In this document: positions 13,701 to 56,824 of the stretch, piece after piece
Position numbering within the stretch: position 1 is the stretch's first letter
How the letters are laid out: every line of letters begins with the position of its first letter
DNA from: Octopus vulgaris
Taxonomy: Eukaryota
DNA: 64,000 nucleotides
Assembly (NCBI GenBank): GCA_951406725.2
Contig: OX597820.1
Coordinates: forward strand, 19,902,001-19,966,000
Reading direction: 5' to 3'
Position numbers and translations under genes: made by a program
Notes under the pieces: generated by a model
Told to the model about the DNA's origin: nothing
Seen by the model: only the letters and a program-made list of their open reading frames with translations
The model's database searches: none

Positions 13701-15071
13701 GAGTTACACACCCTGTCTCAGTTAGTCATGCTTGGGAATCCAGCAAGACAGGCTAATGATGGTTGCTTCTAATAGGACCCTACGGAGGAGTTGCCTGAGG
13801 ATCTTGCTCCGATTACCCTGTCAGGAGTAGTATTCAGATAGTAATAGTGGTGAAGATGGATGGACAGACAGACAGACAGACAAAAACTTGTTATTAATCA
13901 ATAATAAAAGACATACTTATTTCAGGGCAGCTGCCAATCAGTATTTTGATGTCATCTAATGCAATGCCATAGTAACCATGGTTACGAATAGCTTCAAAGT
14001 AAACCTGTGGAAACAACAACAGCAATTTATTAGAGAAAAACATCCAAAACTATTGATCAATAAGAGCTTCATATTAACGCTTTAGCATTCAGATTACTCT
14101 GTCAAATGTAAGGCTTATTTTATTCCCACTGTTTTGAATTCCTCCTCCTCCTCCTCCTCCTCATCCTCATCCTCATCACCACCACCACCACCACCACCAC
14201 TACCGCTGTCACCACCACCACTCTCCCCCACCAGCACCAGCACCACCGCTGCCGTAACCACCATTTAACGTCCGTTTTCCATGTTGGCATGGGTTGGACG
14301 GCTTAACATGAGCTGGCAAGGCCAGGGTCTGAACCAAGTTCCGTAGTCTGTTTTGCCCTAGTGGATGACCTTCTTAACGCCAACCATTTTACAGAATATA
14401 CTGGGTGCTTTCTTTGTGGCACCATTGCCAGTGATTTTTTTTATGCGACCCCATCACCAGTGCCTTTTATGTGGCACCAGCACCAGTGGTTTTTACATGC
14501 AGTAGCACCAGTGCTTTTTTGCATGGCACTAATTATCTTGTTGCTTTGAAATTTAATGATATGGCTGTTTATTTTCAGAATAGCATTATATGTTTGAATT
14601 GTATGTATGAATGACATTGTATAGATGCAGGAGTGGCTGTGTGGTAAGTAGCTTGCTTACCAACCACATGGTTCCGGGTTCAGTCCCACTGCATGGCACC
14701 TTGGGTAAGTGACTTCTACTATAGCCTCGGGCTGATCAAAGCCTTGTGAGTGGATCTGTTAGACGGAAACTGAAAGAAGCCTGTTGTATATATATGTATA
14801 TGTATATATATGTGTGTATGTGTGTCTGTGTTTGTCCCCCCCAACATCGCTTGACAACCAATGGTAGTGTGTTTACGGCCCTCGTAACTTAGTGGTTTGG
14901 CAAAAGAGACCGATAGAATAAGTACTAGGCTTACAAAGAATAAGTCCTGGGGTCGAAATTTCCTCAAGACAGCTGATGAAGGCTGGAAGGTATATCAGCT
15001 TAACAACAAACAAGATGAGGATAAATATCCGTCAAATGTAAATAATGTATATACAAAAATATATATATATT

Positions 15072-15123
<52 letters not shown>

Positions 15124-18100
15124 CATATATATACAAGATTAATCTTCTTTCAGTTTCTGTCTACCAAATCCACTCACAAGGCTTCGGTTGGCCCAAAACT
15201 TTAGTAAAAGACACTTGTCCAAGGTGCCATGCAGTGGGACTGAACCTGGAACCATTCGGTTGGGAAGTAAACTTCTTACCACAAAGCCACACCTGTGCCA
15301 ATTTATTCACATTGTTTTGAACTAATCATGCATTGTTTTATATCTCCATGTTTCCGATGGTATGAGTACTTATTTTTAGAATGACATTGTTGGATAGGTG
15401 TGAGAGGCCAGATCTGGTCAGTAAGAGCATAAAACAGGTAGAATATTTGGTCCAGATACGGCCAGTTTAAATACTTTAGGGTTAGACTTACCTTGTTTGA
15501 TTTTTCTGGGTTCGCAACATCGATAGAAGCATGCAACCAATAGTAGCCCTGTGTTCCAGATCTTGTCCATATGGGTGGTTTCTTCTCGCCATTGTTATGA
15601 ACATAGACATTCAACTGACCAAAGTTGGTAATTCTCATGTAATACCAAAATGTGATGCAGATAGGTCTTGTGATATGAATGTCAGTGCTGATAAACCTGG
15701 CTGTTCTGTTAGTGGTGCTCTGTGAGTTGTTCAGAAGAAGATAATGTCCTGAAACATAAAACATTGTTCTTCATATAATGCAGAAGCAACAACATTTGAC
15801 TACCGTAAATCCTCGAGTATAATCCGCATTTTTCCCCCAAAATTTAAAGGTCAAACTCCCTAGTGCGTACTATATACGAGGTTAAAAATGAAAAATATTT
15901 TCTAAGCAATGTCCGAGTCTCTATTTGTTGTCCGGCAATGTTTATTCAGATGCATTTTGTGATGTCGGGTGCGAAAATACCTTAAGCTAAACCTGAAAGC
16001 AATGAAGTCATAAAAGAACCATCCATAACTTACAGTAAGCAACATTTATTAAACATTTATTAAACGTTATTACTGTTATTTCTTTTTTTTCTGCAAACAA
16101 AATGCACAAAAAAGCTACACGTTTGCATTATGTTATATATACAATAATAATAAAGGACGTTACTGTATACAGTTTTACAAACCAAGGACGTTATATAGAC
16201 CTCCTAAGTTAGTGAAGGGGTGCGTATTATACACAAGGTTTAGGTTTTTCAGAGGTACAGCCCTCTAAAAATCCCCTGCGTATTATACTCAAGGGCGGAC
16301 TATACTCGAGGATTTATGGTAATTGCTTTTTATTTGTTTTCTTTTTCTTTTTCTGTTTTTTTTTTCCCTGAGGATGATGTATAGCAGTGGTTCCCAAAGT
16401 TTTTCGGGCTGCCGCCCTCCTTGACACTTGAGCCACATTCCCATCGCCCCTCCCCCACCACTCAGCACCACAAATGTAGACCACTTTCTGTAGAAAATTC
16501 AAAACAACTGTATTTCACAAATAAAACTTGACCTAATTAATCCATTGCTTTTTTGGGAGTGGGTGGGTAGGGAAGTGTGTGTGTGTGTATGGGGGGGTTT
16601 ACATCCCTGCCCTCCCCTACATTGGCCACCCCATTATTGCCCCACTTTTCTTCAACGTCTCGCTTAATGTTTCTGCCGCCCACACGGGTGGGGCAGTGCC
16701 ACCCACTTTGGGGACCACTGATGTATAGCACTGTACACACACACACACACACACACACACATGCATACGACTTAAATGCAAATATTACAATGCAGTGTTG
16801 CACCACTTGCATGCAAGCCTATAAAAAAACAGACTGCTGTTGCTGATAGTGATGATGGTGACAATGAAAATGATGATGACAATGACAACAAGGGAGATGA
16901 TGATGATGATGATGATGATGATGACGCTAATGACAATAATGATATGGTGATGATGACGATGATGATGACAACGATGACGATGATGATGACAACGATGATG
17001 ATGACAACAATGACAATGATGACAACGATGATGATGAGGCCAACGATGACGATGATGAGTATGATGATGATGACAACGATGATGGGACAATACTGATGAT
17101 TGATGACAACGATGATGATGACGATGACGACAACAATATGATGACAGCGATGCTGTAACACTGTCATAGACTATGACAATGATCATGATGAAAATGATGA
17201 CAATAATGATAATGATGATGATGACGGTGATGATGATGATGATGATGATAAGGGTGAGGATAATGATGACGATGATAATAATAATAATAATGATGATGAT
17301 GATGACAGATGAGTTAGCATCTACTGAAATGGAAATAAAAACAAGATTATTAGTCAGCACTTCTTCAGTTTGAAAGATCAGGTCATCCCATAAGTCCCGT
17401 CCGATTTTACCTTTTTTAAAATTGAATGAAATTTAAAAGTATTTTAGAATGTCTAATGAAATTAAAAATTATTTTTATGCATTTGTGTACATTTAAACTA
17501 ATTAAATATTATTTTACAGAATAATAGAATTAAAATGTCTTCCTTTCTAACATGGAAGTATCCAAAGAGCATTTGAATTCTTTATGAGTACAAAAAAGGA
17601 AACTCTGCAGCTGAAGCGACTCGAAACATACACTCAGTTTATGGGAAAGAATGCTTGAATGAAAGAACTTGCAGAAGATGGTTTGCAAAATTTAGAAGTG
17701 GAGATTTCAGCCTTGAAGATGAAGATCAAACAGGACATCCAGTTGAGTTTGATAAGCTCCTTGAGGCATTACTTGAAGAAAATCCTGCATTATCAGTTGA
17801 GGAATTGGCAATAAAGCTTAGTTCAAACCATACAACTGTTCATTGTCATCTTCAACAACTTGGAAAGGTTCCTAAACTTGGAAAATGGGTGCCTTATGAA
17901 TTGTCAGAAAGCAAATCTCAAGTTGGCATGTGCTCTTCTCTCCATTCTCATGAACTCATTTCACCCTTTTTGGATAGACTTGTAACTGGTGATGAAAAAT
18001 GGATCTTCTATCGAAATGTTAAATGTCGTAAATAGTGGCTTGGTAAAAGGGAAAAAATTCATCTACAACCAAGAAGGGAACTTCATGGGAAAACGGTTCT

Positions 18101-20870
18101 TCTCTCTATCTGATTGTAAAGGAGTAATTCACTTTAAATTGTTACCACCTAATGCAACAATCAATGCTCAAGTCTACTGTCAGCAATTAGAGCTGACAAT
18201 GCGTGACCCCACACTGCAAAGATCACATCACAGAAGATCGAAGAGCTTGGTTGGGAAAAAATTCCCAATCCACCTTATTCTCCTGACCTTGCTCCTTCAG
18301 ACTACCATTTGTTTCGTAGTTTACAGAATCATTTGGGGGACATAACTTTCGCAAGCCAGGAGGAGGTCGAAACTGACATTTAAGAGTTCTTCGCTTTGAA
18401 ACCAAAAGAGTTTTATATTGATGGGATTAAAAAGCTTGTAAATAGATGGAAGGAAGTTATAGATAATCAGGGAAAGTACATTGATGATTAAATTTCAATT
18501 AAATATAACATTTGATCACTTGCTTTCTTTATTCAAAATTCAGACAAAACTTATGGGATGACTTGATATAAGAAATAAAGCTAATAAAATAATATTTGTC
18601 AATAGTCTTACCAAAATGATTGCCTAGCGTGTGATCACTGCGGGGTCCACCTCTCTTGTAGATAAATACTCCATAACTGATCATAAATTCAGCATTTGTT
18701 GTGGAATCTATCTGCCAACCACACAAACCATATTCGAAAGTGCACTGGAAGAAGATATCTGAACAAAGAAAGCACCAAATATGGTTATCAGTAAAAAAAA
18801 ACAAAACATTATTTTATTGTATAGTAATATATATAAAGTTTTGTGCCCTTGCTAGTTGAGACAACTATATGAATGGTGCTTTTTATGTGCCACTGGCATG
18901 GGAGCCAGTCAGGTGGCACTGGAATTGACCATGCTCGAATGGTGCTTTTTACGTGCCACTGGCATTGACCACATATAAAATTGTGTGCCCTTGCTTGTTG
19001 AGACAACTATAAGCAGCAACTATATGTGTTGGTGAGAGAAAAGGCATCCAGCCAAAACAAAAAAATACTGCCTAAGAAAATAAAGAACAAGACAACAAAA
19101 ACTGTTCAACTCATGCTAGCATGGAAAAGCAGCAGTAGAACATGGATGAAGGTGCTGTTGCAGCTTGATGATAATTATGATACATATAAATGATTACTAG
19201 TGGAGGCGCAATGGCCCAGTGGTTAGGGCAGCGAACTCGCAGTCATAGAATCGCGGTTTCGATTCCCAGACCGGGCATTGTGAGTGTTTATTGAGCAAAA
19301 ACACCTAAAGCTCCACAAGGCTCTGGCAGGGGGTGGTGGCGATCCCTGCTGTACTCTTTCGCCACAACTTTCTCTCACTCTTTCTTCTGTTGGTCTGCTC
19401 ACTTAGCCAGTAGGGTGGCATTATTTGAAGGTTAAAAACAATGCGAAGTGCATTGTGACCAGCGATGTGTAGCAACATCTGATAGCCTGGTCAGTCACGG
19501 TAATCAAGGTGATAAATGATTACTATATATAAACACTACAATGCTAAAATGTTGATTAATTATCTCTGATGCATGGCAGTGGGGTAAGAAATTTGCTTCT
19601 CGATCACATGGTTCTGGGTTCAGTCCCACTCCATGGCACCTTGGGCAGGTGTCTTCTACTATATCCTCAGGCTGACCAAAGCCGAGTGAGTGAAATTTGG
19701 TGAACGGAAACTGAAAGAAGCCTGTCACATATCTTTTATCTTTTACTTGTTTCAGTCATTAGACTGTGGCCATGCTGGGACACAGCCATGAGGAATTTTT
19801 AGTCAAACTAACCAATCCCAGGACTTATTCTTTTGTTAATCCTGGTACTTATTCTATCGTTCTTCTTTGCCAGACCTCTGTTGGTGTGTTTATATCCCCA
19901 TAGCTTAACAGTTTAGCAAAAGAGACCAATCAAGTAAGCACCAGGCTTAGCAAAACAATTAAGTACTCTGGTACTTAATTTTTTTTTTTGATAAGCCTTG
20001 TACTTAAACCAGGGGTTGGTTCATTCAACTAAAAATTATTCAAGGCAGTGCCCCAGCATGGTCGCAGTCTAATGACTGAAACAGTCAAAGGATAAAAGAC
20101 TGCACTTATGACAATGCTGACAATTAGAGAATGATGTCAACTGTGTTATTATATTCTTTGGTAAAGCAGTCCCTTTAGGAAAAGGGCCGGGAAAGAACTT
20201 ACGTTAATGAAGGGAATGAGGTGATTTGCCACAGCTGCTTGTAAGCTGAGGATTTAGCATGGCTTACTGGACATTGAGCTTCTCTTGAGGACAGTAGTTT
20301 TTAATATCTGAGGCAAAATACACACACATTCACACATATACACACACATGCATACACACAAATATATATATATTTTTTTATGGCTGCCCCCTCGTTATCG
20401 AGTATGGCCATTGCACGAAGCTTCACTGTTACTGGTGCTGTGATCGAATGTGACTTTTTAGCCCAGCTAAAGATCTACAATGTCTTGTACAAAATTGGCA
20501 ACTAAAACCTTTACTGGTAATAGCCGGCTGTAGTTGTAACTGGGCTTCATGTACCTTTGCATGTCGTTTAAGTCCTCCTGCCGAATTACACTCTCTTCCA
20601 CATGCCCGACAGATATGATTAGTATGGTGTGTTACACCACCACCAGTGGCCAGGTTGTCACTCATCTGTCTCGTTTTATGACTACGAAGATGACTCATGA
20701 GTCCAGCTTTACTGAGGCAGGGTCTTGCACAGACATTGCATGTCAGAATCAAAGGAAGACCCTTCCCTTCTGGAAGTGTAACAGCGATGCCCTTACTGAC
20801 ATCCCTCCTTACTTTCTCATACACATGCATGCACACACATACACACATGCATGTAAAAATATACACATAT

Positions 20871-20917
<47 letters not shown>

Positions 20918-21643
20918 GGAGATGTACTCGCATAGCAAGTGATTTGATCTGAGATCGTGTGCTGAAACGAAAACAATTGCAGCGTGGAAGGTGTTTGTAA
21001 GCCATTTAAGAAACACACAAAAGTCGTTTGATTCACTTCAACATTTAAGTTTAATTTGTCAAAATATTTTCATCGCTAAAATCCGCGACCTGTTCACTGA
21101 CAAAAATCCGTGCTGCAGCACGGATTTTGACAAATTAAACTTAGATGTTGAAGTGAATCGAACGGCTTTTGTGTGTTTCTTAAATGGCTTACAAACACCT
21201 TCCATGCTGCAATTGTATATATATATATATATAAAATACAAAATGGGACAAGAACGCAAAACATCCGGACAGTTAGGTGATACAAAAAGGGACAACAAAA
21301 CATCCAGATAGACGATACAAAAAAAACAAGGACAGGTCATTCGAAGCCTTTTATCCTCAGTCAAGAACTGGATCATCCTCACAATTTCGGTTGATTAATC
21401 TTGAGATTGCTCCAATCTGGCCAGCCCCAAGGAAAAACTAAGCTAAGAGCATTAGATTCCTTGGAAAAAAGCATCGAATGTATACAAAAATAAGGATGGA
21501 AAAACAGACGATGTTACACGAATATAAATACAAAAGTACAATAAAAATAAAAATAATAACAGGACATAACAACAGGCGTCTTTCGACTGGGGATGAATTG
21601 AATTCAGCTGGCGTGTGTGGAAATGAAGCCTTATGGCAGAGGG

Positions 21644-21729
<86 letters not shown>

Positions 21730-24104
21730 GCAGCATGGAAGCTGTTTATAAGCCATTTAAGAAACACACAAAAACCGTTAGATTCACTTCAACATTTAAA
21801 TTTAATTTACCAAAATATTTTCATTGCTTTGAGACCAGAATTTTGTCAGTGAACAGGTCGTGGTCTCAAAGCAACAAAAATATTTTGTGATGTGATGTGT
21901 TGTGTGGTATGGTGTAGTGTGGTGTGATGGTGTTGGGAGGTGGGGGAGGTGAGAGTGGGGAAAGCACAGGTGGGGGTGTGGGTTATATATATACATATAT
22001 ATACATACATATATATATATAGAAAGAGAGAGAAAGAGTGAGAGAGAGAGAGAGGTGGGGAGAGAGAAAATAAGAAAAATATTAAAACATCTGATGTCAA
22101 ATAAGTCAGCATCAAACCAGCAATACCAAATAGGCAGTACCAAAAATGGCTGTGCCAAGAAAACCCTGTGCCAAAACGTCTCCTACCCATGAGTCAAAGA
22201 ATTAGATATGGAAATAATGATCTTCTGGGTACTTACTACAAACATTAAGTACACTAAGTACATAAAGTAAATTCTTTTAGTGTTTTACAACAACTCACCT
22301 CTTTTAACTGGTGCCACAGTTGTAGTTGGTACTGTAACTATTGACTCACATGTTCCATTCTGGAACCTAATGTCATCCAATGCAATATCACTGGTATACG
22401 TCTTGCCCCGAACTCCTTCAAATATGATTACATACGTTGTTGGTGATATGATTGTGAAGTTGCCAAGTAGCCAGATGTTACCTTGGTTTCCACTTAGATG
22501 CCAAATTGTCCTGTTTGATTGACTGTTCTTATAGAAGACATTCAGGTCTCCCATACCTTAAATACCAAAGAGAAAAAAAATAAGTAGAAAAGAAAGAAAA
22601 GAAAAAGAAATATGATAAGAATGACAGTTTATCACAGTTAACAGGAAGCTGAAAGGGTAAACTTGGGTTGCTACACCTGACAGAAAAAGCTGGCCTCCGT
22701 GCCAGTGGCACGTAAAAAGCAGCATCCGATCGTGGCCGCTTGCCAGCCTCGTCTAGGATGTAAAAAGCACCCACTACACTCACGGAGTGGTTGGCATTAG
22801 GAAGGGCATCCAGCCGTAGAAACATTGCCAGATCAGACTGGGCCTGGTGCAGCCTTCTGGCTTCCCAGACCCCAGTTGAACCGTCCAACCCATGCTAGCA
22901 TGGAAAGCGGACGCTAAACGATGATGATGATTAAATGAAATACACTGGCTTTATTTGAATTAATTAATTTTGACAAATGTTGCCTCTCACAATATAGAAA
23001 CATTTCTCATGGCGCCAGCAGACAAAATGGAAAAGGCATTGTCCTGGAGTATGGTGAAGGAGATAATAATAATAATAATAATAATTGTGTACAGTGCTCA
23101 GGTGCACTACAACTCATCTAAAGTGTATATATAATCAGGTGTAGTTTCGGCGGATTTCGGAAAGCATGAGGGCCTTAAAAGATGCAGTGTCATGGCAGTC
23201 AACAACTGATGCAGGCAGTTTATTCCATGCTTCAGCAACTCTGAGCGTGAAAAAATGTTTCCGAAAGTCATGGGAGCTGTATTGTTTTCTGACTTTGTAG
23301 GCATGTCCACGTGTGTTAGACACATGGAGATCAAAAAGGTGTTCAGTGTTGTTGTTGGTGAGGTGGTTGATAACTTTGTGGGTGTTTACCAAGTCCGTCG
23401 CCAAACGCCGGAGCTTCAGTGAATCCATGCCCAGGGAAACAAGGCGCTCAGAATATGTTCCAGAATATGTGCTGGAACAACCCCTCTGACTCACAGGACT
23501 CACACTTGCAGATAGCCATCTCTGCCCTAATAGCAATGAACATGGATATGGTCTGGGGGCTGAGGACTCTGGAGGCTTGACCATAAACCTGTCTGAGAGT
23601 GACTGATACCTTGACAGTTTAAATAGTTAAAAAAACTAAACATCATACCAAGAAAAACACAAGCAGGTATTGTCACAATAATCCTTCTTTCTGTGGGCCT
23701 TCAACTTCTGATGGGGTCACTGGGTGCTGTTATGTTATAGGGTACATTTTGGGTATTTTAATCCTTGTTGGGCCCATCCCTCTCTATGACCACCCACAGC
23801 TAATTCTTCCAGAGAAATTGAAGAGTCAACATTAGTGATGGATCTTTACCATTTATCTTTTACTTGTTTAAATCCCTGAACTGTGGTCATGCTGGGGCAA
23901 CCCACTTGAAAGGTTTTGGAAAATAAACTGCCACCAGTACTTATGTTTCTTTTAAAGTTGGTACTCATAGCCTCGGGCCGACCAAAGCCTTGTGAGTGGA
24001 TTTGGTAGATGGAAACTGGAAGAAGCCTGTCGTATATATGTATATATGTATATATGTATATATGTATATATATATTATATAAATATATACATATATACAT
24101 ATAC

Positions 24105-24136
<32 letters not shown>

Positions 24137-24331
24137 GTATATGTTTGTATGTCTCTGCTTGTCCCTCCAACATCGCTTGACAACCAATGCTGTTGTGTTT
24201 ATGTCCCCGTAACTTAGTGGTTCGGCAAAAAGAGACCAATAGAATAAGTCCTGGGGTCGATTTGCTCGACTAAAGGTGGTGCTCCAGTATGGCCGCAGTC
24301 AAATGACTGAAACAAGTAAAAGAATAAAAGA

Positions 24332-24389
<58 letters not shown>

Positions 24390-32678: not shown

Positions 32679-32735
<57 letters not shown>

Positions 32736-33041
32736 AGTTGTTTGTTTGTTCCTTCTCGAGCCACGCCTGGCTCATAAGGGCCGGTTTCCCGATTTCCTTG
32801 GCATATAGGTTCCCCACCTGGATGGGACGCCGGTCCATTGCAGGTGAGCTGCAAGATTCAGGAGGAAAGAGTGAAAGAAAGTTGTGGCGAAAGAGTCAGC
32901 AGAAGTTCGCCATTACCTTCTGCCGGAGCTGTGTGGAGCTTAGGTGTTTCACTCATAAACACACACATCGCCCGGTCTGAGATTTGAACCCGCGATCCCT
33001 CGACCGCAAGTCTTCTGCTCCAACCACTAGGCTATGTGCCT

Positions 33042-33081
<40 letters not shown>

Positions 33082-37044: not shown

Positions 37045-37091
<47 letters not shown>

Positions 37092-40000: not shown

Positions 40001-40149
40001 GGGATTCTTTTTATGTTTCAAGGAAGGACCTTCTTCAGAAACAGAGACAGAGGAAAGTCCAACATAAGAGGAAGATGGAGGAAAAAAATCGCGAACAATC
40101 CACATGTAGTTATATATATATATGCATGCACATATATATATATATATGC

Positions 40150-40201
<52 letters not shown>

Positions 40202-40715
40202 CAAAGTGTACAGTATTATATATCCATCATGGCAGATCTTACCAACCAGTTTCATGCTAGGGGTACAACAGAGTGTTAGGTAACGATCCGATTATATAAC
40301 CCTACACTCATCAGAGGTAGCTGATATGGAATGAAATATCACTCTATTGACAGATATACAAGTGCATCTTTTTCTTGACTTATGGACTTTTGGATAACTT
40401 ATGTGTATATATGTATATATGAGGGTCCCAGCTGATACAATCAACGGAACAGTCTGCTCATGAAATTAACGTGCAAATGACTGAGCAATCCACAGACATG
40501 TGTACCCCTAACGCAGTTCTTAGGGAGATTCAGCGTGACATAGAGTGTGACAAGGCCGGCCCTCTGAAATACAGGTACAACTCATTTTTGCCAGCTGAGT
40601 GGACTGGAGCAATGTGAAATAAAGTGTCTTGCTCAAGGACACAACATGTCACCGGGAATTGAACTCACGACCTTACAATCGTGAGCCAAATGCCCAAACC
40701 ACTAAGCTATGTGCC

Positions 40716-40753
<38 letters not shown>

Positions 40754-41263
40754 ATATATGCATACACACACACTGGATTTTTTTCCTTTTTTCCATTTAC
40801 CAAATCCCTAATTCTACTCACAGGGCTTTGATAGCTCAGAGCTATATCGGATGACACTTGCCCAAGGTGCAAGATAGTAGGATTGAAACAAAAACCACAT
40901 GGTTGGGGAGCAAATTTCTTGACTATACAACCACTCCAGCACCTCAAAATATCAAAATACATAGATAAATAATATAAAACTTGCTGCATATAGTTGAAAA
41001 CCTAAGTGCAAAAATGAAACAGAATTTGATTTGGCTAATAGGGATCATTTAGAATGAAAACTGGGCTTAAATGTGGAATGTCTTAAAAGACAAAGAAATA
41101 GGCATAGGAGTGGCTGTGTGGTTAGTAGCTTGCTTACGAACCACATGGTTCCGAGTTCAGTCCCACTGTGTGGCATCTTCGGCAAGTGTCTTCTACTATA
41201 GCCTCGGGCCGACCAAAGCCTTGGGAGTGGATTTGGTAGATGGAAACTGAAAGAAGCCTGTTG

Positions 41264-41332
<69 letters not shown>

Positions 41333-44300: not shown

Positions 44301-47300
44301 CCTAAGTTACTAGGATATCAACAAACCAACACAGGTTGTTAAGCAGTATGTGGGGGACAAACAGACACAAAACATACACACAAACACACTCACACACACC
44401 TATCTGTCTGTCTGTCTAAACATGAAGGGCTTCCACACAGTTTTCATCAGCCAGATTCACTCACAAGGCAAGTCAGCTTGGGCCTATTGTAAAAGATGCT
44501 TGCCCAAGGTGATGTGTTGTGGGACTGAACCCAAAGTCATGTGGTTGTAAAAGTGAGCTTCTTAACCACACAGCCGTTAATATTCACATGCTCCACCATG
44601 AATCCAAAATTTATAGAAACTAGTCTCATTACAGCAGAATATGTTTCAAATCATTTCTAGATGAAATGAAATATCCATCGTCTGTGACAGAACTGCCATA
44701 ATAGTGAAACATAGACACTGATAAAGAAATTATCAAATGGGATAAATGGATGCTACACAAGGATGCTACGAATGGCCCTGAATGTGAAATGTCACCACCA
44801 CCACCACTACCACCATCATCATTATCACCATCATCATTTAATGTTCCCTTTCCATGCTAGCATGAGTGGGACGGTTTCACAAGAGACAGCCAGGCAGAAG
44901 CCTGCACCAGACTTCTGATTGTTTTAGCAGGATCTTTACAGCTGGATGCTCTTCCTAATACCAAACACTCAGCAGAGTGGACTTAGTGCTTTTTACATGG
45001 TCCGAGCACAGGAGAGGTCAGTAGCGCTTTCCACATGGTACAAGCACAGGTGAGAACAGTTTTGGCAAGGTTTTTACAGCTAGATGCCCTTCCGAACACC
45101 AATCACTTTACAGTGTAGACTGGGTGCTTTTAGGTGGTCCCTGCACTGATAGGGTCACCAAGTACTTGCAAAAAAAAAAAAAAAAAAAAAGAAGCTACAT
45201 ATGAAAAATGAATGCTTTCATGGAGACCTGTTGAAAGTTAGTGAGAAGATCAAGCAAAAATGGCTGTGACAATCTGGTCACTGCATACGCCACCGTGAAT
45301 TGAAGGCACTGAAATTAGTTTTGTAGAACCCACTTTATGGTGATGTAAGGAGAGTAAAACATTATCACACCTATATTGATAACCTCTATTATGCCCAGGA
45401 TATTAATCATCTGGAAGCCGTTCAGTGACGTGCAACCAAGATAATACCCTCCATCAGGTATTTGCCATATTCTGAACGCCTTACTTCCCTGGGCATGGAT
45501 ACATTGAAACTCCGACATCTGGTAGCTGACTTGGCAGACACCCATAAAATTATTAACCATCTTACAAACAATAACTCTGAGCACCTTTTCAAGCTCCACC
45601 TGTCTAACACCCGTGGACATGTTTACAAAGTCAGGAAATAGCACAGCTCCCATGACTTTCGGAAACATTTTTTCACGCTAAGAGTTGCTGAAGCATGGAA
45701 CAAATTACCAGCATCAGCTGTTAGTTGTCGGAGCACTGCATCCTTCAAAACTTCCATGCTTCCTGAGATTCGCCAACACTACACCTGATTTTCTCCCCTC
45801 CATACACACGCAAGCATGTATCTGACTCATACACTGTTCACTTTCCAGACATTTGTACATTACTGCATATGCTTTATATGCACTATTGACAAGTTGTGGT
45901 GCACCTGAGCACTGTATACAATAATTTCATTATATTAAGTTGATTGCAGACAATGGTCTAGAATGTATCCAGGACCCTGTGGCAATGATGATGAATATTA
46001 CCTCCCTTGCTAGTAAGTAAATTGCTGTTAAATTGTCCAGTGAATAAGGCTTACCTGATTTTTGTGGATCGGCATAGATTGGTTTGATTGAACAGGATTC
46101 TTGAGAAATAGAAATATCATCTATAGCAATGTCTCCATAACTTCCATTCCCTCGAATTGCTTCAAAAATTAACTGGAAAAAAGAAGAATTAAAAAATTTT
46201 AAATACACTGACTTATCTTATTTTTTTATTGAAGTAAAATCACATCATTAATTAATACACCATTGATTATAAGACCAGCAAGAAGCTCATTAACCCATTA
46301 GCATTCAAATTATTTTGTCAAATATATTGCTAATTTATTCAAATTGTTTTAAATTTATTATTCACTATCAGGTGTCTTGGGGAAATTTTGAACCTGAGTT
46401 CTCATTCCTAAGGTATTTTTCAATGTTGTTATTATTATTATTATTATTATTATCATTATTATCATTATCATTATTATTATTCAGATCACTGCTTGGAATC
46501 GAACTCAGAATCTTGGGGTTCGTAGCCTGTGCTCTTAACCACTACACCATATGCCCGTGGCGTAGTGGTTAACAGCACGGGCTACTCACCCCAAGATTCT
46601 GAGTTCTATTCCAAGCAGTGACCTGAACAATAACAATAATAATAATAATAATAGCAACAAAAAATACCTTAGGAATGAGAACCCAGGATCGAAATTTCCC
46701 CAAGGCACCTGAAAAAGGCTGGAGGGTATATCAGCCGAAACATTGTGTTAATAACAAACAAGATGAGGACAAATATCCGTCGAATGTAAATTCATTTTAT
46801 TTGGTTAAAATGTTCAACTTGAGTAAGATAGATAAAAAAATAAGTCTGTATTTATAGCAAATGACTGTCTCCCAGTTTTCAACACAGATAGCGCACAATG
46901 CATCTGGTGTGGAATTTTAAAAGATTAGCCACGCCAGTGTTTTCTGGCATAAGATCTGGTCATCAAATCTAAGTAGAGATTTCAAACTTAAAATCTTCAA
47001 AGCCACAGTTGAACCAATTCAACTATATGGCTCAGAAACCTGGACATTATCAAAGAAGCTTGAGAGGCGGTTGGATGGAACTTACACTCGCCTCCTTATG
47101 AAAGCTCAAAATCTCTCGTGGAAGCGTCATCCAACCAAAGTACAAATATATGGGAAATTACCACCTGTATCATCTCTTGTGAAAGGTAGAAGAGTCCAGT
47201 TTGCTGGACATTGTTGTAGAGCTGAAAACGAGGTAATTTCTACTCTTCTCCTCTGGAAGCCATCTGCTCGCGATACCAGAGGGCGCACACTCTCCTACCC

Positions 47301-50300
47301 TGATGTAATCTTTAGGGATACAGGCATCCAGCAACAGGGCCTCCATAATGCTATGATGGACTGTGAAGTCTGGTGTAACATAGTAAATTCCATTGTCTTG
47401 ACCACGGTTGAATAATGATGATGATGATGTTTTCTGGGTTTTTGTTGAATGATGGAGAATGAGAGGAAAGTAAAGATAAAGAATAGAGATAGAAGTGTTG
47501 GCCTCAAGGGGATTTGCAGAAAAGTGTGTGAATTGTGAAAATGGCTTGTAGTGGCACAAGCAGTCAGCGCCATATTGGATGAGATCTTGCGACAGCTATT
47601 GCCTTCTCCGAGATTGGAGCGAGACTTCACCTGCATCCATTTGCCATGTGCGAGATCACAACAAGGCTTGCAATGGAAAACTGTATATAAGGGAAAACTC
47701 GATTCAGACTTGCCTCTTTTGGTGCCACTTCACAGCAGTGCTGGCTGAATACCTATTTCTTTATTACCCACAAGGGGCTAAACACAGAGGGGACAAACAA
47801 GGACAGACATAGGTATTAAGTCGATTACATCGACCTCAGTGCGTAACTGGTACTTAATTTATCGACCCTGAAAGGATGAAAGGCAAAGTCGACCTCGGCG
47901 GAATTTGAACTCACAACGTAACGGCAGACGAAATACCTCTAAGCATTTCGCCCGGTGTGCTAACGTTTCTGCCAGCTCGCCGTGCTGGCTGAATACCACA
48001 ACTGGCTGGGCCTGTCTGCATGTTATACCTCCAGAGGCAATTTGCGGCCCGCACTATCGGAGCTACTACACAACGCACACAGCTAAAGATGGTTGCTGAG
48101 AGCAGCACACTTCACCTATGCTGTGAAACTTGTAAATAAAACCATTTGTAAATAGCATTTGTACTTGAAGTCATCTCTCTTCGCCTGTCAGAAGCCTGAA
48201 CTATATGAAAAACCAAAAGATGATGGAAGAAGACGATATTCTTCTGATATTGTAAACCTTGCCTTCCATTATAAGCTTAAATGAAAAGAGTGGAGGCGCA
48301 ATGGCCCAGTGGTTAGGGCAGCAGACTCGCTGTCGTAGGATCGCGGTTTCGATTCCCAGACCGGGCATTGTGAGTGTTTATTGAGCGAAAACACCTAAAG
48401 CTTCATGGGGCTCCTGCAGGGGGTGGTGGTGAATCCTGCTGTACTCTTTCACCACAACTTTCTCTCACTCTTTCTTCCTGTTTCTGTTGTACCTGTATTT
48501 CAAAGGGCCAGCCTTGTCACACTCTGTGTCACGCTGAATCTCCTCGAGAACTACGTTAAGGGTACACGTGTCTGTGGAGTGCTCAGCCACTTGCACGTTA
48601 ATTCCACGAGCAAGCTGTTTCGTTGATCGTATCAGCTGGGACCCTCATCGTCATAACCGACGGAGTGCTCCTTTTTTTTATATGAAAAGACTTATATTGA
48701 GTATGTGGCTGTAGGCTGAAGAAAACAGCTAAGAGGGGAAGAGGGAGAGAGAGAGTGTGAGAGAAACGAGATAGGGAGAGAGAGGGAGAGAGAGGGAGTG
48801 AGAGGGAGAGAGAGAGTACTTGACCTTGACAGTCAGGGTGATCCTGGATTTAGGGAGTTCTCTGTGTGGAATTACTATGATTTATATAACAATGGTGCCA
48901 AGTTTTGGTGGAGAGAAGAAGAAGAAGAAGAAGAAGAAGAAGAAGAAGAAGAAGAAGGGATGATGATGACAATGATGATGATGGTGATACTGGTGATGGT
49001 GATGATGATGGTGGTGGTGGTGATAATGGTGGTGTGATGATGATGATGATAGTAGTGATGGTAATGATGAGAACAACAATGATGACGATGACAATGATGA
49101 TGACGACGATGATGATGATGATACTCATGATAATAAGATGGAAGAAGAAGAAGAAGGTAATGATCTTGATGACGATGATGATGACGATGACGATGATGAT
49201 GATGATGACGATGATGATGATGATGACGAATGATAAAGATGAAAGATATATTCTGATGTTGAAAGTTTTAGAAAATGAAGCAACTTTACCTGATGACTCA
49301 TGCCAGTGTATTTCGGATCTATATACACTTGAGCACTAAACCATTTCTGTCCCTGGTTGCCATTCACAGTCCAAATGAAGGCAGCATCATAGTGGCGCAA
49401 AAAGCCAAAAGACTTTCGCACCAAAACATTCAAAGCATTTACATCCTTTCCATACATCTGGTACCAGAATTTCAAGCAGCCTGGTTTCTTATTTGCTGAT
49501 AAATGCTCACTGAGAAGGTGAGCTACATCTCCTGGACGAATTGGGCTGCTAGAGTCTATGTACATATAGTGTCCTTTAGCGTTGTTATAGGTGTGGTCAT
49601 ATATAGGACCAGTCTGATCTGTTAAGGTGAGTCCTTGACCGATAACCCAATCAAAGTCATCCAGCTTGTCATTTCTCCAATTGCAGGGACCATTTTCAAA
49701 ATCACAGAAACCTGAGTAGTTGAAAAAAATATTTTATATATGTGTATATAAAATAGTGGAATTATATAATTAGAAAAGGGTTAAAAATATTTTAATTACC
49801 AATAAAATAAACTAAGCACCTGTTCATTCATACACATCTTATGGTTCAATCAAAGAGTATGTGAGGAAAGATTGGCCAGTGTCATCATTGAAATGTCAAC
49901 ATTTGCATGTTTGCATGCTTTGTTTGTTCCTTCTTGAGCAACACCTGGCTCATAAAGGCCGGTTCTCCGGTTTCCTTGGCATATAGGTTCCCCACCTGGA
50001 CGGCACGCCGGTCCATCACAGGTGAGCTGTAAGATGCAGGAGGAAAGAGTGAGAGAAAGTTGTGGCGAAAGAGTTCGCCATTACCTTATGCCAGAGCCGA
50101 GTGGAGCTTAGGTGTTTCACTCATAGACACATACATTGCCTGGTCTGAGATTCGAACCCACGATCCCTTGACCGCGAGTTTGCTGCTCTAACAACTAGGC
50201 CATGTGCCTCCACGTGAGCTTGCATAGGTCTGATGGAATTCATTAAAGCAGATTTTTCTATAGCCAGATGCTCTTTCTGTTGGTAACTTTTTCCAAGTAA

Positions 50301-50452
50301 GATAATATTCTAGTTTTCCTAGGCCTGGCATGTTTTCATGGAAGACTAGAAGTGAATGCCACCATTTGTGTGATGGGGACTCTCGCTTACAACCATGTGA
50401 TGTCAAGACAAAGAGGCACAACTCCCCCCCATTATATATATGTATGTATGTA

Positions 50453-50530
<78 letters not shown>

Positions 50531-50848
50531 GAGGCGCAATGGCCCAGTGGTTAGGGCAGCGGACTCGCGGTTGGAGAATCGTGGTTTCGATTCCCAGACT
50601 GGGCATTGTGTGTGTTTATTGAGCGAAAACACCTAAAAGCAGCACGAGGCTCTGGCAGGGGGTGGTGGGGACCCCTGTTGTACTCTTTCACCACAACTTT
50701 CTCTCGCTCTCTCTTCTTGTTTCTTGAGTAATGCTGTGGTGGACTGGTGTCCCGTCCAGCTGGGGGGATCACATACGCCACAGAAACTGGGGAACCGGGC
50801 CCATGAGCCTGGCTAGGCTCGAAAAGGGCAACGAAGATGAACGGACAG

Positions 50849-50927
<79 letters not shown>

Positions 50928-53900
50928 ACAGTCTTCTTTCAGTTGCTGTCTGCTGAATTCACTTACAAGGCTTTGGTCAGCTTACAGCCATAACAGAAGA
51001 TCCTTTCCAAGGGTACCATGCAGTGGAACTAGATGCAAAGCTATGAGCACATATTGCATTTACAAATTACATCTAATTACATTTTACTGATGGACAATGC
51101 TGCTCGTATCTCTGCAGATGACCTGGATTTCATCCCCATTGCCAGAGCACAACTTGTGCACTCAGCTCACTCTGAAGAAATTAACAATGCTGGTGCCACG
51201 TAAAATGTACTGGTGCTGGAGCCACATAAAAAGTACTAGTGCTCATGCCATGTAAAAAACACTGTTGCTGGTTCCATATAAAAAGTACTGGTGCTGGAGC
51301 CACATAAAAAGTACTAGTGCTCATGCCATGTAAAAAACACTGTTGCTGGTTCCATATAAAAAGTACTGGTGCTGGAGCCACATAAAAAAGTACTAGTGCT
51401 CATGCCACGTAAAAAACACTGTTGCTGGTTCCATATAAAAAGTACTGGTGCCGGAGCCATGAAAAAAGTACAGGCATTGGACATCACATAAAAGCACTGG
51501 TGATGGTGGCAAGTACAAAGTACCGGTGCTGGTGTCACATAAAGAGTACTGGTGATGGTGTCACGAAAAGTACTGGTGTTGGAGCCACATAAAAAGTGCT
51601 GGTGCTGGCACCATGTAAAAACACTGTTGCTGGTGCCATGTAAAAAGTACTGGTGCCGGAGCCATGTAAAAAGCACTGGCGTTGGTGTCACATAAAAGCA
51701 CTGGTGATGGTGCCATGTAAAAAACACTATTGCCGGAGCCATGTAAAAAGCACTGGTGATGGAACCATGTAAAAAGCACTGGCGTTGGTGTCACATAAAA
51801 GCACTGGTGATGGTGCCATGTAAAAAGCACTATTGCCGGAGCCATGTAAAAAGCACTGGTGATGGAACCATGTAAAAAGCACTGGCGTTGGTGTCACATA
51901 ATAAGCAAACCAAAAAATAAAACAAAACAGAATAAAAAAAAATGTACCTGGTGTTTGACATGATCCATTGGTTTGGAAAACATCATCAATGGCAATGTCA
52001 CCTCTAAAGCCTTTTCCTGATATTCCTTCAAATATGACCTGAGGAAAATATATCAAAAGAAGAGGGATATGAATGGAATATTTTAAAGGTTTTCTATTTT
52101 GGCACAGGGCCAGCAATTTTTAAGGAAGTGGTTAAGTTGATTACATTGACCAGTGTCGAAGTGGTATTTATTCTATGAAGGCGGCGAGCTGGCAGAAATG
52201 TTAGCATGCCAGGCGAAATGCTTAACAGTATTTCGTCTGTCTTTACGTTCTGAGTTCAAATTCCACCGAGGTCAACTTAGCCTTTCATCCCTTCGGGGTT
52301 GATAAATTAAGTACCATTTATGCACAGGGGTCGATGTAATCGACTTAATCCCTTTGTCTGTCCTTGTTTGTCCACTCTGTGTGTAGCCCCTTGTGGGTAG
52401 TAAAGAAATAGGTATTTATTTTATCAACCCTGAAAGGATGAAAGGCTAAGTTGACCTTGGTAGAATTTGTCCCCAGAATACAAAGAGCTGGAAGAGACTA
52501 AGAATTTCGCTAAGCATTTTGTCCAACAGGCAAATGATTCTACCAGCTCTCCACCTAATGGAAAAATATAATTTTGTTTCTTTCTACTCTAGGTACAAGG
52601 CTTGAAATTTTGCAGGAGGGGGCTGGTCGATTACACTGATCCCAATGGTGAACTGGTACTTATTTTACCAACCCTGAAAAGATGAAAGGCAAAGTCAACC
52701 TTGGTGGAATTTGTCCCTAGAATACAAAGGGCTAAAAGAAATGCTGCTAAGCATTTTGTCCAACTTGCAAACAATTCTATCGGTACTCCACCTTATGGAA
52801 AAATATAATTCTATTTATTTCTATACGCACAGGGCCTGAAATTTTGGTGAAGGGGGTTAGCCAGTTACAACTCCAATGTTCAACAGGCACTTATTTCATG
52901 GGTCCTGAAAAAATTAAAGGCAAAGTCGATCTCCCCTAAATTTGAACCCAGAACATGAAGAAGGGGTACAAATGCTGTTAAGCATTTGTCTGACTTGTTA
53001 ACGCTTCTACCTGTTTGCTACCTTATGAAAAATACAAGGAAAAAGTAAAACACCAAGGAAAGGAAGACATTCAAGTGAAGACAATATCTTAGTCTCCTAA
53101 AGCAGTGAGCTGGCAGAAATGTTAGCACGCCAGGCAAAATGCTTAGCTGTATTTCGTCTGTCGCTATGTTCTGAGTTCAAATTCCGCTGAGGTCGACTTT
53201 GCCTTTCATCCTTTCAGGCTCAATAAATAAAGTACCAGTTTCACACTGGTGTCGATGAAAACGACTTAATCCCTTTGTCTGTCCTTGTTTGTTCCCTCTA
53301 TGTTTAGCCCCTTGTGAGCAGTAAAGAAATAAATATCTTAGTCTCTTTAGGCAGTGAGCTGGCAGAAATGTTAGCATGCTGGGCAAAATGCTTAGCAGTA
53401 TTTCATCTGCCATTACGTTCTGAGTTCAAATTCTGCTGAGGTTAACTTTGCCTTTCATCCTTTCGGGGTTGATAAATTAAGTACCAGTTGCATACTAGGG
53501 TCGATCTAATTGACTGGCCCTTGCTCTCCAAAAATTTCAGGCCTTGAATCTAGAGTAGAAAACTATATCTAAGTCTCTTTTCAATCATGGTTAACTATGG
53601 ATTTTGTGGTTTTGCTCCTGGAAAGTTCTTCACCATGGCATAGATTTGGATAAGGGTGTTTTGTGGAGATTAGGGGTTCTTAGTCTTCCTTGTTCTATGG
53701 CCCAGCTCAAGTCCCATGAAAATGGTAATGCCAATGCAACTTAGCACACGTGTTATTGCACAGGTACCACATTCAGAACACAAAGAACTGGAACAGATAC
53801 CTCAAGACATTCTGTTTAATGTTTAAATAGTTCTGTCTATCCCAAACCCTCCCAGATTGGTGCTTTTTGTTTTATCACCCACCAAAATAATAAAAGTTAA

Positions 53901-55424
53901 TGTTGGTCTCAGCAGGAACCCAGAGTATAAGGAATTGGAATCAAGACACAGAGTTGAAAATTTTTGGTAAGTGTATTTCACTTTTAGAAATGAGATTTTG
54001 AGACATTTGTAGTTATGGTGGTAGTCGTAGTGGTTGTGGTGGTGATGGTGGTGGTGGTGGTGGTGGTAGTGGATGGGTCAAAATGGATTAGTGATGGAGG
54101 TATTGGAATGACAGCTCATGGGTTGTGAGTGCAAATAAGTCAATACATTTGTTTGTGTCCCATAACAAGACCTTCGAACTGATGCACACCTTCATCACTC
54201 TCACAGCTGAGAACAGGGCACCAATTGTTCATAGAATATTATTTGTAATAGCTGGCCATCTTATCATGTCAAAATCTGGACTTAAAATCTCGAGAGATGA
54301 AACTAAATTCAAAAACACATTTTGTCCATCATTCTTCTATGTCAATTTTCCCTTTAAACTTATAGCAGACAAATAATATTGCTTATAGCTTACCGTATAG
54401 TTACCATGTGCAGCAAGTGTTACTGTGCCTTCAATCCAATTAGGGCCTTGGGAATGTTCCATGTTCCACAGTGGGGATTTTAATTCATCAAATTGGTTTC
54501 CAAACGCCTGATATATATTTAGTGTATTGATATCTTCACCATACATAAAATAATAGAAATGTAAGCACGTTGGTGTGTCAGTATGATACATAGGACTAAT
54601 CAGCTGGGCTGTTTGGTTCACTTTCTTGGATGAGGTTTCAATGTAGAAATAATGTCCTGATGGAGTTCCCATGGTGTGATCCGCAGTTGGCCCGGTTCCT
54701 GAGCTTTGTGTCCTTCCATGGTGCCAGGTCCATTCAAAGTCAGCGTTCTTGTTATGAGTATAATTACATTTGTCCTCTGATTCAAAATCACAGAATGTTG
54801 GGTTATCTGGATAAGGAAATAAAAGTTTTATCTCAGCTTTCTTGAAATAAACTCTGGCTTTATACAAACACACACACATACTTGTATATGATGTCTCGTG
54901 AAATTATGGGAGGAAATCTCATAAAACTCAACAATTTAGTTAAAAATGGAGAAGAGAAGATGTTAAAATATATAACAGAATTGAAATTCTCTTATACATT
55001 TTAACATTTTCTCTTCTTTATTTTTAACAAAATTGTTGAGTTTTCTGGGATTTCTTTTCGTAATTTCACACCAGATATACAAGTATTATTTTCATATTTG
55101 CAAATTTACACAAATAAGCTACCAGCAAAATATGAAGAATCACTATTAGAAATCTATTTTGGAAACCTTCAAATTAAAGGACGAATCTAATTCAACCTTT
55201 ATACACACAAACACACACACACACACACACATGTATATATGTGCAGGTGGCATGTAAAAAGCACCCACTACACTCACGGAGTGGTTGGCGTTAGGAAGGG
55301 CATCCAGCCGTAGAAACACTGCCAGATCTGACTGGGCCTGACGAAGCCTTCCAGCTTCACAGACCCCAGTTGAACCGTCCAACCCATGCTAGCATGGAAA
55401 GCGGACGCTAAATGATGATGATGA

Positions 55425-55499
<75 letters not shown>

Positions 55500-56188
55500 C
55501 TCAAAGTAAGCCACAAGTATATCCGATGTAATGTGGTACAATCGTTTCATGCTACTTCATTTTATTAAACACTGTAAGTATTACATCAGTTTTAAAATGT
55601 CGAGCAATCTTCAGCCACTTATAGAAATTTTCTATAATTTTATAGAAATTTTCTATAAGTGGCTGAAGATTGCATGACATTTTAAAACTGATGTAATACT
55701 TACAGTGTTTAATAAAATGAAGTAGCATGAAACGATGGTACCACATTACATCGGATATACTTGTGGCTTACTTTGATTATAATCACCCCATGGATTTATA
55801 TGGATAATACCATACAAAATTCTGGTGCCTTTGACTTAAGTACCATATTCATATGAATCTAAATTTTGCTGAACTTATATATATAAGAATTAAGATATAA
55901 ATCCAAATTAGGCAATCATACTCATACAGTTATAAATTCGACTTAAAATGCATATTCATACACATATTAATACATATTGATACACATACATATTTAAAAA
56001 AATATTTATAAAACATAAATATATATAAATTTACATAAAAATACATGTAAATAAAACCCATATGGAAGAAAATGTGAGAAAAAGAGAACTAATTTGTGTT
56101 TACATCTTAATTCTTATCTTTTGTCATGGGTTCAACCCGAGCACTTCTTAAGCAGCTCTATATTTTTTGTAAGGAAGATCAATAATAT

Positions 56189-56245
<57 letters not shown>

Positions 56246-56778
56246 CTCACAGAGGCAATGACGAAAAACCAAGACCTCTGGAGATATGCTGCGACTGCGA
56301 AGACAAATGAAGTGAGTTCATGGCTCACAGGACGGCCTGCTGTGCTTACCTTGGATCGTAGGGTGACCTGCTGTGCTTGAGGAAATCTATTGAGTCAAAT
56401 ACATCAACATCAAAATAAAAATCAAATGGAAATTGAAGTTGTGATACCCGTGCCGGTGGCATGTAAAAAAACACCATTCGAATGTGGCCGATGCCAGCAC
56501 TGCCTTGACTGGTGTCTGTGCCAGTGGCACATAAAACGCACCAACCAATCATGGACATTACCAGCCTCCTCTGGCCCCTGTGCCGGTGGCACGTAAAAAG
56601 CACCCACTATACTCACAGAGTGGTTGGCGTTAGGAAGGGCATCCAGCTATAGAAACACTGCCAGATCAGACTGGAGCCTGGTGCAGCTTCCTGGATTCCC
56701 AGATCCCAGTCGAACAATCCAACCCATGCTAGCATGGAAAACGGACGTTAAACGATGATGAAGATGATGATGATGATG

Positions 56779-56824
<46 letters not shown>

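What the first reader, a model, noticed from the sequence alone, without database searches (positions are those of the whole stretch)
14968..55776. Several families of Penelope-type hammerhead ribozyme motifs inside the introns of one gene
Seen: about ten motifs with stem I - CUGANGA - stem II - GAAA - tiny or palindromic stem III - NUH - stem I topology. They lie at 14973, 21055(-), 21842, 24612, 25900(-), 40007(-), 40238(-), 46704, 55533(-) and 55659, and fall into 4-5 unrelated sequence families, mostly inside inverted repeats or next to (TA)n. Known: Penelope-like elements carry minimal type I hammerheads in their often inverted pseudo-LTRs, thought to cleave as dimers. Inference: this genome has several non-autonomous ribozyme-bearing retroelement families, and sense copies could cut this pre-mRNA co-transcriptionally.
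Basis: partly seen in the sequence, partly recalled or inferred. Interest (0 to 1): 0.8.

Follow-up and report, generated by a model that had tools for sequence, protein, structure and literature searches.

The report
Octopus retroelement hammerheads with altered cores
The ten motifs are short, mostly decayed end-pieces of six Penelope-type jumping-gene families in the introns of an octopus gene, and they are unlikely to cut that gene's RNA, but two of the families, present in thousands of copies, carry hammerhead-ribozyme folds with altered core letters whose cutting activity is untested.

Summary
All ten motifs are at the stated places, in introns of a minus-strand multi-MAM gene of an octopus. 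They form six families (A-F). Each family was traced to the 3' end of a Penelope-like element (PLE) ORF ending in a GIY-YIG nuclease, so these are stubs of coding PLEs, not separate non-autonomous elements. No window copy passes my hammerhead descriptor, and five have lost core nucleotides. Of three near-intact sense copies, two are buried in inverted-repeat hairpins and one is predicted to misfold, so cutting of the pre-mRNA is unlikely. PLE hammerheads are known (Cervera 2014). Beyond that: family D has a swapped G3-C8 core pair (6,459 exact matches, none with C3-G8), where clade relatives carry C3-G8 or U3-A8. It also has a G3·G8 lineage (223). Family E has U6 for A6 (19,213 vs 802). D stubs often start with an extra G, as expected for cDNA of a capped, uncleaved leader. 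I found neither core variant in print, but the key paper (Lünse 2017) was not available. This scan noted G3-C8 motifs before in other genomes. Cleavage is untested.

The parts
14968..15007 (+). Family B minimal-hammerhead remnant (Penelope/Poseidon-like PLE end); GAAAC box deleted; antisense to host gene
21055..21104 (-). Family D motif: 7-bp stem I, GUGAACA core (G3-C8), G9.1, 5-bp stem II (closing pair G·U in this copy), palindromic AAUAUU, U17; sense to host
21118..21210 (+). Inverted arm of the family D insertion; on the pre-mRNA it is predicted to pair with the cleavage site and stem I 3' strand of the 21055 motif
21806..21836 (-).
21842..21890 (+). Family D motif, older loop-II type, G12>A, truncated; antisense
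24610..24688 (+). Family A type I motif with long loop II (Hydra-like PLE end), G12>A; antisense
25900..25936 (-). Family E motif (family core CUGUNGA, U6), 5' box mutated in this copy; sense
40008..40042 (-). Family F minimal hammerhead, boxes intact but stem II closure and stem III broken; sense
40238..40316 (-). Family A motif, core intact, G·U at 10.1-11.1 and in stem III; the only sense copy with an intact core and no covering hairpin; predicted to misfold
46704..46749 (+). Family B minimal hammerhead, G8>A and G16.2>A; inverted piece of the same element at 46368-46560; antisense
55533..55618 (-). Family C motif (Hydra-like PLE end), identical to the family majority across the fold, U·U at 10.1-11.1; sense; one arm of an inverted repeat
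55659..55744 (+). Family C motif, core intact; opposite arm of the inverted repeat; antisense
2658..63934 (-). Host gene: many-exon MAM-domain gene (MAM and LDL-receptor class A domain-containing protein-like); at least 15 exon-like stretches

Best explanation
The ten motifs are 100-250-base end-pieces of six Penelope-like retroelement families, each joined elsewhere in this genome to a GIY-YIG nuclease gene, that landed in introns and are likely decaying there without cutting the host RNA. Shown: linkage to PLE ORFs, fixed 3' ends, frequent inverted partners, and the per-copy damage. Inferred mechanism: the element is transcribed from its pseudo-LTR; its protein starts reverse transcription at one of two internal sites just inside the ORF start and copies back to the RNA 5' end, so most insertions are only the short leader that holds the hammerhead, often with an inverted second piece, in AT-rich or (TA)n targets. 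For family D the leader seems capped and uncleaved when copied, since stubs span the cleavage site and often start with an extra G. Family D's motif is a hammerhead homologue with the 3-8 core pair swapped to G3-C8, and family E's has U6. Both would be slow, dimer- and protein-dependent ribozymes at best, and cleavage is probably not required for spreading.
For: Linkage: B, L057/L046 align from the EN tail through the motif. D, L276/L277/L278 are continuous from RT motifs through GIY-YIG to the motif; 1,025-codon frame in L410. C, L279/L280. A, L287/L305/L307 and L349. E, L345 has two direct copies around RT and EN remnants. F, L353/L361/L365. Inverted partner within about 500 nt: A 14/29, B 17/29, C 8/28, D 26/29, E 3/29, F 2/29. 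3' ends cluster at two positions in A, C and D, like the two RT start sites and 'tail' of PAc (PMC11167929). D stubs: 88 of 93 copies do not reach the upstream UTR; 16 of 22 junction copies that reach the leader start have a G where the element has C or T (10 of 14 by my hand count after removing those an inverted arm could explain). D homology: clade relatives (about 46-47% protein identity for L440, L441) carry, just before the repeated ORF start, C3-G8 (L441, L444, L456, L460) or U3-A8 (L440) with the same G9.1 insertion and mostly U17. The sister family in this genome has C3-G8 with a compensatory change in stem II. Counts: G3-C8 6,459, C3-G8 0, G3·G8 223, G3·A8 49; E U6 19,213 vs other bases 802, with position 7 free. 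Core positions vary less than other non-CpG positions among copies found without the motif in the query (52/1498 vs 783/13238, P=6e-5). Folding argues against host cleavage.
Against: No cleavage, expression or RNA-end data were obtained. The cap-G signal is weaker in the pattern-selected subset under a stricter parse (4 of 7). Core conservation is significant in A, E and F but not in C or D, and base composition is not controlled. Pfam scores for the PLE pieces are weak: GIY-YIG 22.5 bits against a cut-off of 22.6, RVT_1 24.9 against 29.6, and 3 of 5 pieces had no hit. Copy counts include passengers: 8 of 30 sampled older D loci sit inside one other repeat of about 1.5 kb. Equilibrium folding does not model co-transcriptional folding or proteins.
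Confidence: 0.88

Rival explanations
1. One or more sense copies self-cleave the MAM-gene pre-mRNA during transcription and affect its output.
For: Three sense copies keep their family core (21055, 40238, 55533). 21055 folds correctly when taken alone (stem I 0.47-0.75, stem II at least 0.96), and a truncated sense copy at 21806-21836 could in principle supply a palindromic partner. Conserved intronic hammerheads exist in amniotes (PMC6155905 passages).
Against: Inverted arms that are transcribed first remove stem I in 21055 and the whole fold in 55533; 40238 misfolds. Minimal PLE hammerheads showed no monomer activity and low dimer activity (PMC4209133); PAc needed its protein. Orientation is 5 sense, 5 antisense, with damage in both.
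Confidence: 0.07
2. The families are non-autonomous ribozyme-bearing SINE/retrozyme elements that amplify as short units.
For: Most copies are short and ORF-less. One D stub is amplified inside another repeat of about 1.5 kb (8 of 30 loci). Retrozymes are proposed to derive from PLEs (bioRxiv 10.64898/2026.07.22.740005).
Against: Every family continues into a PLE ORF. No tandem arrays: a same-strand second piece in 0-1 of 28-29 loci for five families; D's 21 of 29 appear to be pieces of the inversion junctions. 5' junctions differ from copy to copy.
Confidence: 0.05
3. The variant cores of D (G3-C8) and E (U6) are catalytically dead or irrelevant; the fold is kept for protein binding, promoter or leader function. 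This rivals only the catalytic part of the best explanation.
For: A G3·G8 lineage, a pairing that abolished cleavage in PAc, exists at 223 sites with distinct junctions, far above the G3·A8 background of 49. Catalytic mutants did not impair PAc insertion in vitro. The sister family has C9, and family C has U·U at 10.1-11.1. A6C gave under 0.1 per min in a natural variant (PMC3088659).
Against: D keeps a Watson-Crick 3-8 pair in the great majority of copies and in the youngest subfamily; engineered C3G/G8C partly restores cleavage. E keeps every other core letter while position 7 varies freely.
Confidence: 0.4

Closest known systems
Minimal hammerheads (min-HHR) in pseudo-LTRs of metazoan Penelope-like elements (Cervera and de la Peña 2014, PMC4209133)
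   Same: Type I topology, extra nucleotide at 9.1, G10.1-C11.1, palindromic 15.1-16.1, thousands of dispersed single motifs from truncated PLEs, opposite-strand pairs, several families per genome, U3-A8 variant already described.
   Different: Family D has G3-C8 and family E has U6; neither fits that paper's CUGANGA descriptor or is mentioned in the parts I read. A and C have 36-50-nt stem II extensions. Octopus is not mentioned in the one supplementary file that could be searched.
PAc (Poseidon of Anolis carolinensis) leader and hammerhead (Frangieh et al. 2024, PMC11167929)
   Same: Hammerhead next to the ORF start in the pseudo-LTR; two 3' end classes ('tail'); AT-rich targets; uncleaved RNA as template.
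   Different: There G3-C8 is an engineered rescue mutant; here it is the natural state of a young family. The extra 5' G on stubs is not described in the parts read.
Natural hammerhead core variants (Perreault et al. 2011, PMC3088659)
   Same: Covariation at the 3-8 pair (U3-A8) and a change at A6 (A6C) found in nature.
   Different: Those were rare; the passages read list U3-A8 and A6C, not G3-C8 or A6U. Here the variants are family-wide at thousands of sites.
Non-LTR retrozymes of metazoans (PMC7761336; bioRxiv 10.64898/2026.07.22.740005)
   Same: Type I hammerheads in short non-coding repeats related to PLE pseudo-LTRs.
   Different: Retrozymes are tandem and ORF-less; these are dispersed or inverted stubs continuous with PLE ORFs.

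Membership tests
EN+ Penelope-like element | ORF with RT followed by C-terminal GIY-YIG nuclease upstream of the repeat | tested here: met
   RT and EN seen for A, D, E; EN tail continuous with the motif for B, C, F, with a PLE RT piece next to a B copy. Pfam scores sub-threshold.
EN+ Penelope-like element | Pseudo-LTR organisation: 5'-truncated copies, inverted partners, optional 3' tail | tested here: met
   direct repeats around RT-EN in L345
EN+ Penelope-like element | Clade placement (Hydra for A, C; Penelope/Poseidon for B; Neptune/Nematis type for D, E, F) | tested here: inconclusive
   Read by eye from cysteine-linker motifs described in PMC8557442 passages; no tree against reference elements was built.
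Minimal/type I PLE hammerhead | CUGANGA box | tested here: not met
   Met for families A, B, C, F; not met for D (GUGAACA) or E (CUGUNGA). D keeps a Watson-Crick 3-8 pair.
Minimal/type I PLE hammerhead | GAAA box, U16.1-H17, stems I and II | tested here: met
   All six family majorities; stem I is only 2 bp next to the core in A.
Minimal/type I PLE hammerhead | G10.1-C11.1 closing pair | tested here: inconclusive
   Met in A, B, D, E, F; family C has U·U, while a relative of C in L189 has G-C.
Minimal/type I PLE hammerhead | Palindromic or tiny stem III | tested here: met
   ACGU in B, E, F; AAUAUU in D; palindromic in 30 of 69 C copies; 3-bp stem in A.
Minimal/type I PLE hammerhead | Stem covariation | tested here: met
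   Between families, read from descriptor output: stem I of E vs F, stem II and 3-8 pair of D vs its sister and metagenome relatives. No formal covariation statistic was computed.
Minimal/type I PLE hammerhead | Self-cleavage (dimer or protein-assisted) | not testable with these tools
   needs an in vitro assay
Non-LTR retrozyme | Tandem ORF-less monomers each with a hammerhead | tested here: not met
   ORF linkage for all six families

The most novel reading that the evidence does not exclude
Octopus PLEs use natural G3-C8 and U6 hammerhead cores as working, protein-assisted ribozymes at tens of thousands of sites that CUGANGA-based searches cannot see. The G3·G8 lineage of family D is a preserved intermediate of the compensatory swap. 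The extra 5' G shows that most PLE stubs are complete copies of the capped, uncleaved leader.
Probability: 0.3. Interest if true: 0.62.

Novelty: new variant of a known kind. Interest (0 to 1): 0.42.

Why it matters
The role of PLE hammerheads is an open question (PMC8557442, PMC7761336 passages). Family D offers a natural test set: a young element with an open 1,025-codon frame, a swapped core pair, an older lineage with a mismatched pair that still spread, and relatives with C3-G8 and U3-A8. E versus its sister F gives a natural U6/A6 pair. If these cut, hammerhead censuses of animal genomes miss very large classes; if not, that is direct evidence that PLEs keep the fold without catalysis.

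Tried and rejected
Rfam scan: no hammerhead model among 102 matches at E<=5. A GIY-YIG Pfam search of the genome was dominated by another PLE family; only 6 of its 30 loci matched families C-F, apparently as neighbouring insertions, and none matched A or B. An EN near A locus L029 was rejected as A's partner because it is not continuous with the motif. Two D copies 3.6 kb apart (L241) flank repeats and another element's remnant, not a PLE ORF. tblastn found no PLE protein remnant in the window. Sequencing runs: no RNA holder listed; no reads were laid, so expression and RNA ends stay open. Direction of the G3·G8 / G3-C8 change is unresolved: divergence 0.043 vs 0.032, P=0.09 (7 truncated copies dropped); the tree has 141 columns, includes position 8 itself, and shows 4 changes of the label. 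A spliced short exon as the source of the extra G was considered: no shared sequence extends 5' of that G and no matching donor was seen. The count of the passenger repeat is uninformative because the pattern lacked one base of a T run. Literature searches for natural G3-C8, A3-U8 or A6U cores and for octopus PLE hammerheads and for a cap-derived G in PLEs listed no such report. Lünse et al. 2017 (PMC5785218) and Arkhipova et al. 2017 (PMC5850863) were not held and may describe such variants; supplementary file 1 of PMC4209133 could not be searched.
Full report
Setting. The window is G000:C7:19902001-19966000 in a 2.8-Gb genome of 227 contigs. A protein labelled Octopus vulgaris by its source is encoded in this genome at 100% identity, so the host is an octopus. 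A many-exon MAM-domain gene runs on the minus strand across the whole window: 9 of 9 exon ORFs tested hit Pfam MAM, the named homologues are 'MAM and LDL-receptor class A domain-containing protein 1-like', and 15 exon-like stretches are all on the minus strand. All ten sites are outside these stretches. That they belong to a single gene is inferred from strand and domain order; no transcript was seen. Sense copies are therefore the five minus-strand ones.

Observation. Each site was found where stated. Genome searches with six of the sites gave 40-74 matches each from the 40 candidates scored out of 1,110-1,899, and alignments define six families. I wrote a descriptor that allows any Watson-Crick 3-8 pair and any base at position 6. 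It finds 0 hits in the window and one hit in 6 of 30 shuffled windows. With slightly shorter stems allowed, family majority sequences pass in 5 of 6 cases, against 0, 1, 3, 15, 1 and 0 of 2000 shuffles for A-F. Among fetched copies, 2/68, 14/50, 4/69, 64/123, 21/89 and 16/79 pass the stricter setting (these sets include the window's own copies and some sister-family copies). So the families are real hammerhead folds and the window copies are worn. Five have lost core letters, one has broken stems, and four keep their family core.

What the families are. Walking upstream joined every family to a PLE ORF. B follows a GIY-YIG tail without a cysteine linker (L057, L046). D is continuous with RT motifs, a cysteine linker and GIY-YIG in three loci; L410 holds a 1,025-codon open frame with the motif about 1 kb downstream, and 150 EN matches were listed, many at 94% identity with no stops. 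C (L279, L280) and A (L287, L305, L307, L349) follow nucleases with the cysteine pattern described for the Hydra clade (PMC8557442 passages). E lies as two direct copies around RT and EN remnants in L345. F follows a similar EN tail. Clade names are read from motifs only, and Pfam support for the pieces is weak. Copies have fixed 3' ends and often an inverted partner, as described for PLEs. This removes the 'non-autonomous' reading, though one D stub rides inside another repeat (8 of 30 sampled older loci).

Family D core. The motif has a 7-bp stem I, GUGAACA, G9.1, a 5-bp stem II closed by G-C, GAA, the palindrome AAUAUU and U17. Alone, the window copy folds into stems I and II. It lies just before the repeated ORF start, whose first residues resemble those of the sister family and of L441. 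Of 36 metagenome loci with related proteins, 5 gave a same-strand descriptor hit downstream of the ORF: four with C3-G8 and one with U3-A8 and C9; all five have G9.1 and three have U17 (one further opposite-strand hit was treated as chance; many loci lack a 3' flank). The sister family in this genome (about 52-54% protein identity) has C3-G8, C9 and a compensatory change in stem II. Hence D is a hammerhead homologue with the 3-8 pair swapped. Exact 19-mer counts: G3-C8 6,459, C3-G8 0, G3·G8 223, G3·A8 49, other bases at 3 with C8 190. Within the older loop-II types, C8 is 2,366 and non-C8 207 (my hand tally of the first 100 listed: 48 G, 39 T, 13 A). G8 copies have distinct junctions and older loops, so a mismatched master probably spread; whether it preceded or followed G3-C8 is unresolved. 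Other PLE 3' ends in this genome show U3-A8 (L244, L189, L192) and, by eye, A3-U8 (L201), so all four Watson-Crick forms may occur here.

Family E core. The majority is CUGUCGA with A9.1, a 4-bp stem II and the palindrome ACGU. U6 matches number 19,213 with all four bases seen at position 7; other bases at 6 number 802, mostly C in the listed rows. Its sister F has A6 and a compensatory change in stem I.

Selection. In 151 copies of five families found without the motif in the query, non-CpG core positions differ from the family majority in 52 of 1,498 cells against 783 of 13,238 elsewhere (P=6e-5); this holds in A, E and F but not in C or D. It fits constraint on the core while subfamilies diverged and gives no sign that cores are destroyed faster after insertion; genic context was not separated.

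How the stubs arise (inferred). In PAc, reverse transcription starts at two sites inside the ORF start, unprocessed RNA is the main template, the hammerhead cuts only with protein, and C3G/G8C partly restores cutting (PMC11167929, main text parts 1-2 of 4). D stubs end at about +121 or +148 from the core and start mostly 7-32 nt upstream of it; 88 of 93 do not reach the upstream UTR. Of 22 junction copies reaching the leader start, 16 have a G where the element has C or T (P=1.4e-7 against 20%); 10 of 14 after removing those explained by an inverted arm (hand count), and 4 of 7 in a stricter parse of the pattern-selected loci. An extra G opposite the cap is known for other retroelements (recalled, no call). 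These stubs span the cleavage site, so their templates were uncut.

Host pre-mRNA. With its upstream inverted arm, 55533 loses all three stems and 21055 loses stem I (probability 0.00); 40238 has stems I and III at 0.00 and stem II at most 0.16 in three context lengths. Minimal PLE hammerheads had no monomer and low dimer activity (PMC4209133, text parts 1-2 of 4). Cutting is unlikely. Long intronic hairpins as RNA-editing substrates would be a more plausible effect (inference from recalled cephalopod biology; untested).

Literature seen: PMC4209133 parts 1-2 of 4 and passages of supplementary file 2; PMC11167929 parts 1-2 of 4; bioRxiv 10.64898/2026.07.22.740005 part 1 of 5; passages of PMC8557442, PMC3088659, PMC6765202, PMC8495972, PMC6962438 (235 Rfam hammerhead hits in giant squid), PMC6155905, PMC3884650, PMC7761336. 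Not held: PMC5785218, PMC5850863. Searches listed no report of natural G3-C8 or A6U cores, of octopus PLE hammerheads, or of a cap G in PLE stubs. Earlier notes of this scan report G3-C8 motifs behind PLE-like RTs in other genomes and a similar stub-rich window; I did not test them.

Verdict. The finding as framed is a new instance of a known kind, and its most striking inference is unlikely. The family-wide core variants, the mismatched lineage and the capped-leader signature make it a new variant with a cheap decisive test. Interest 0.42.

Noticed in passing
L201 / L243 (G000:C4:866512-869775), 3' of a GIY-YIG ORF: Hammerhead-like motif with an A3-U8 core pair and a short stem II; seen by eye in one locus and below my descriptor's stem-length setting.
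   Followed up: no
L244:3753(-), L189:737(-), L192:2668(+): The abundant 781-codon PLE family and its relatives carry a U3-A8 hammerhead, the variant already described for Schistosoma.
   Followed up: partly
L434, L435 (about 550 nt 3' of a 1,312-codon ORF): A very young sister family of D (many copies at 99% identity) has C9 in place of A9 and a non-palindromic stem III; L440 from a metagenome also has C9.
   Followed up: partly
L510, L511, L521-L524, L526, L535: An inverted D stub is carried inside a repeat of about 1.5 kb with shared ends, seen at 8 of 30 sampled loci on contig C1; carrier unidentified.
   Followed up: partly
window 55533-55744: Family C has U·U at the 10.1-11.1 position in about nine of ten copies, whereas a relative in L189 has G-C; possibly a weakened master element.
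   Followed up: partly
window 28149-32410: Tandem array of 16.9 copies of a 252-nt unit, 97% alike, inside an intron.
   Followed up: no
window 2057-2596: Tandem 133-nt unit (4.1 copies) containing a hairpin that gives sub-threshold Rfam microRNA matches.
   Followed up: no
window 17577-18345(+), 61193-61474(+): Mariner-like transposase remnants, recognised by eye from ORF translations.
   Followed up: no
window 23135-23626(-), 35916-36266, 46921-47415(-), 57181-57537(-): Non-LTR retrotransposon (LINE) C-terminal remnants, recognised by eye.
   Followed up: no
window 20429-21037(-), 57492-58026(-): Repeated fragment encoding C2H2 zinc-finger-like motifs, probably the end of a LINE family.
   Followed up: no
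L110, L116, L410, just 5' of the D motif: A branch-point, pyrimidine-tract, AG-like sequence ends where most D stubs begin; it could be a splice acceptor, an initiator, or both.
   Followed up: partly
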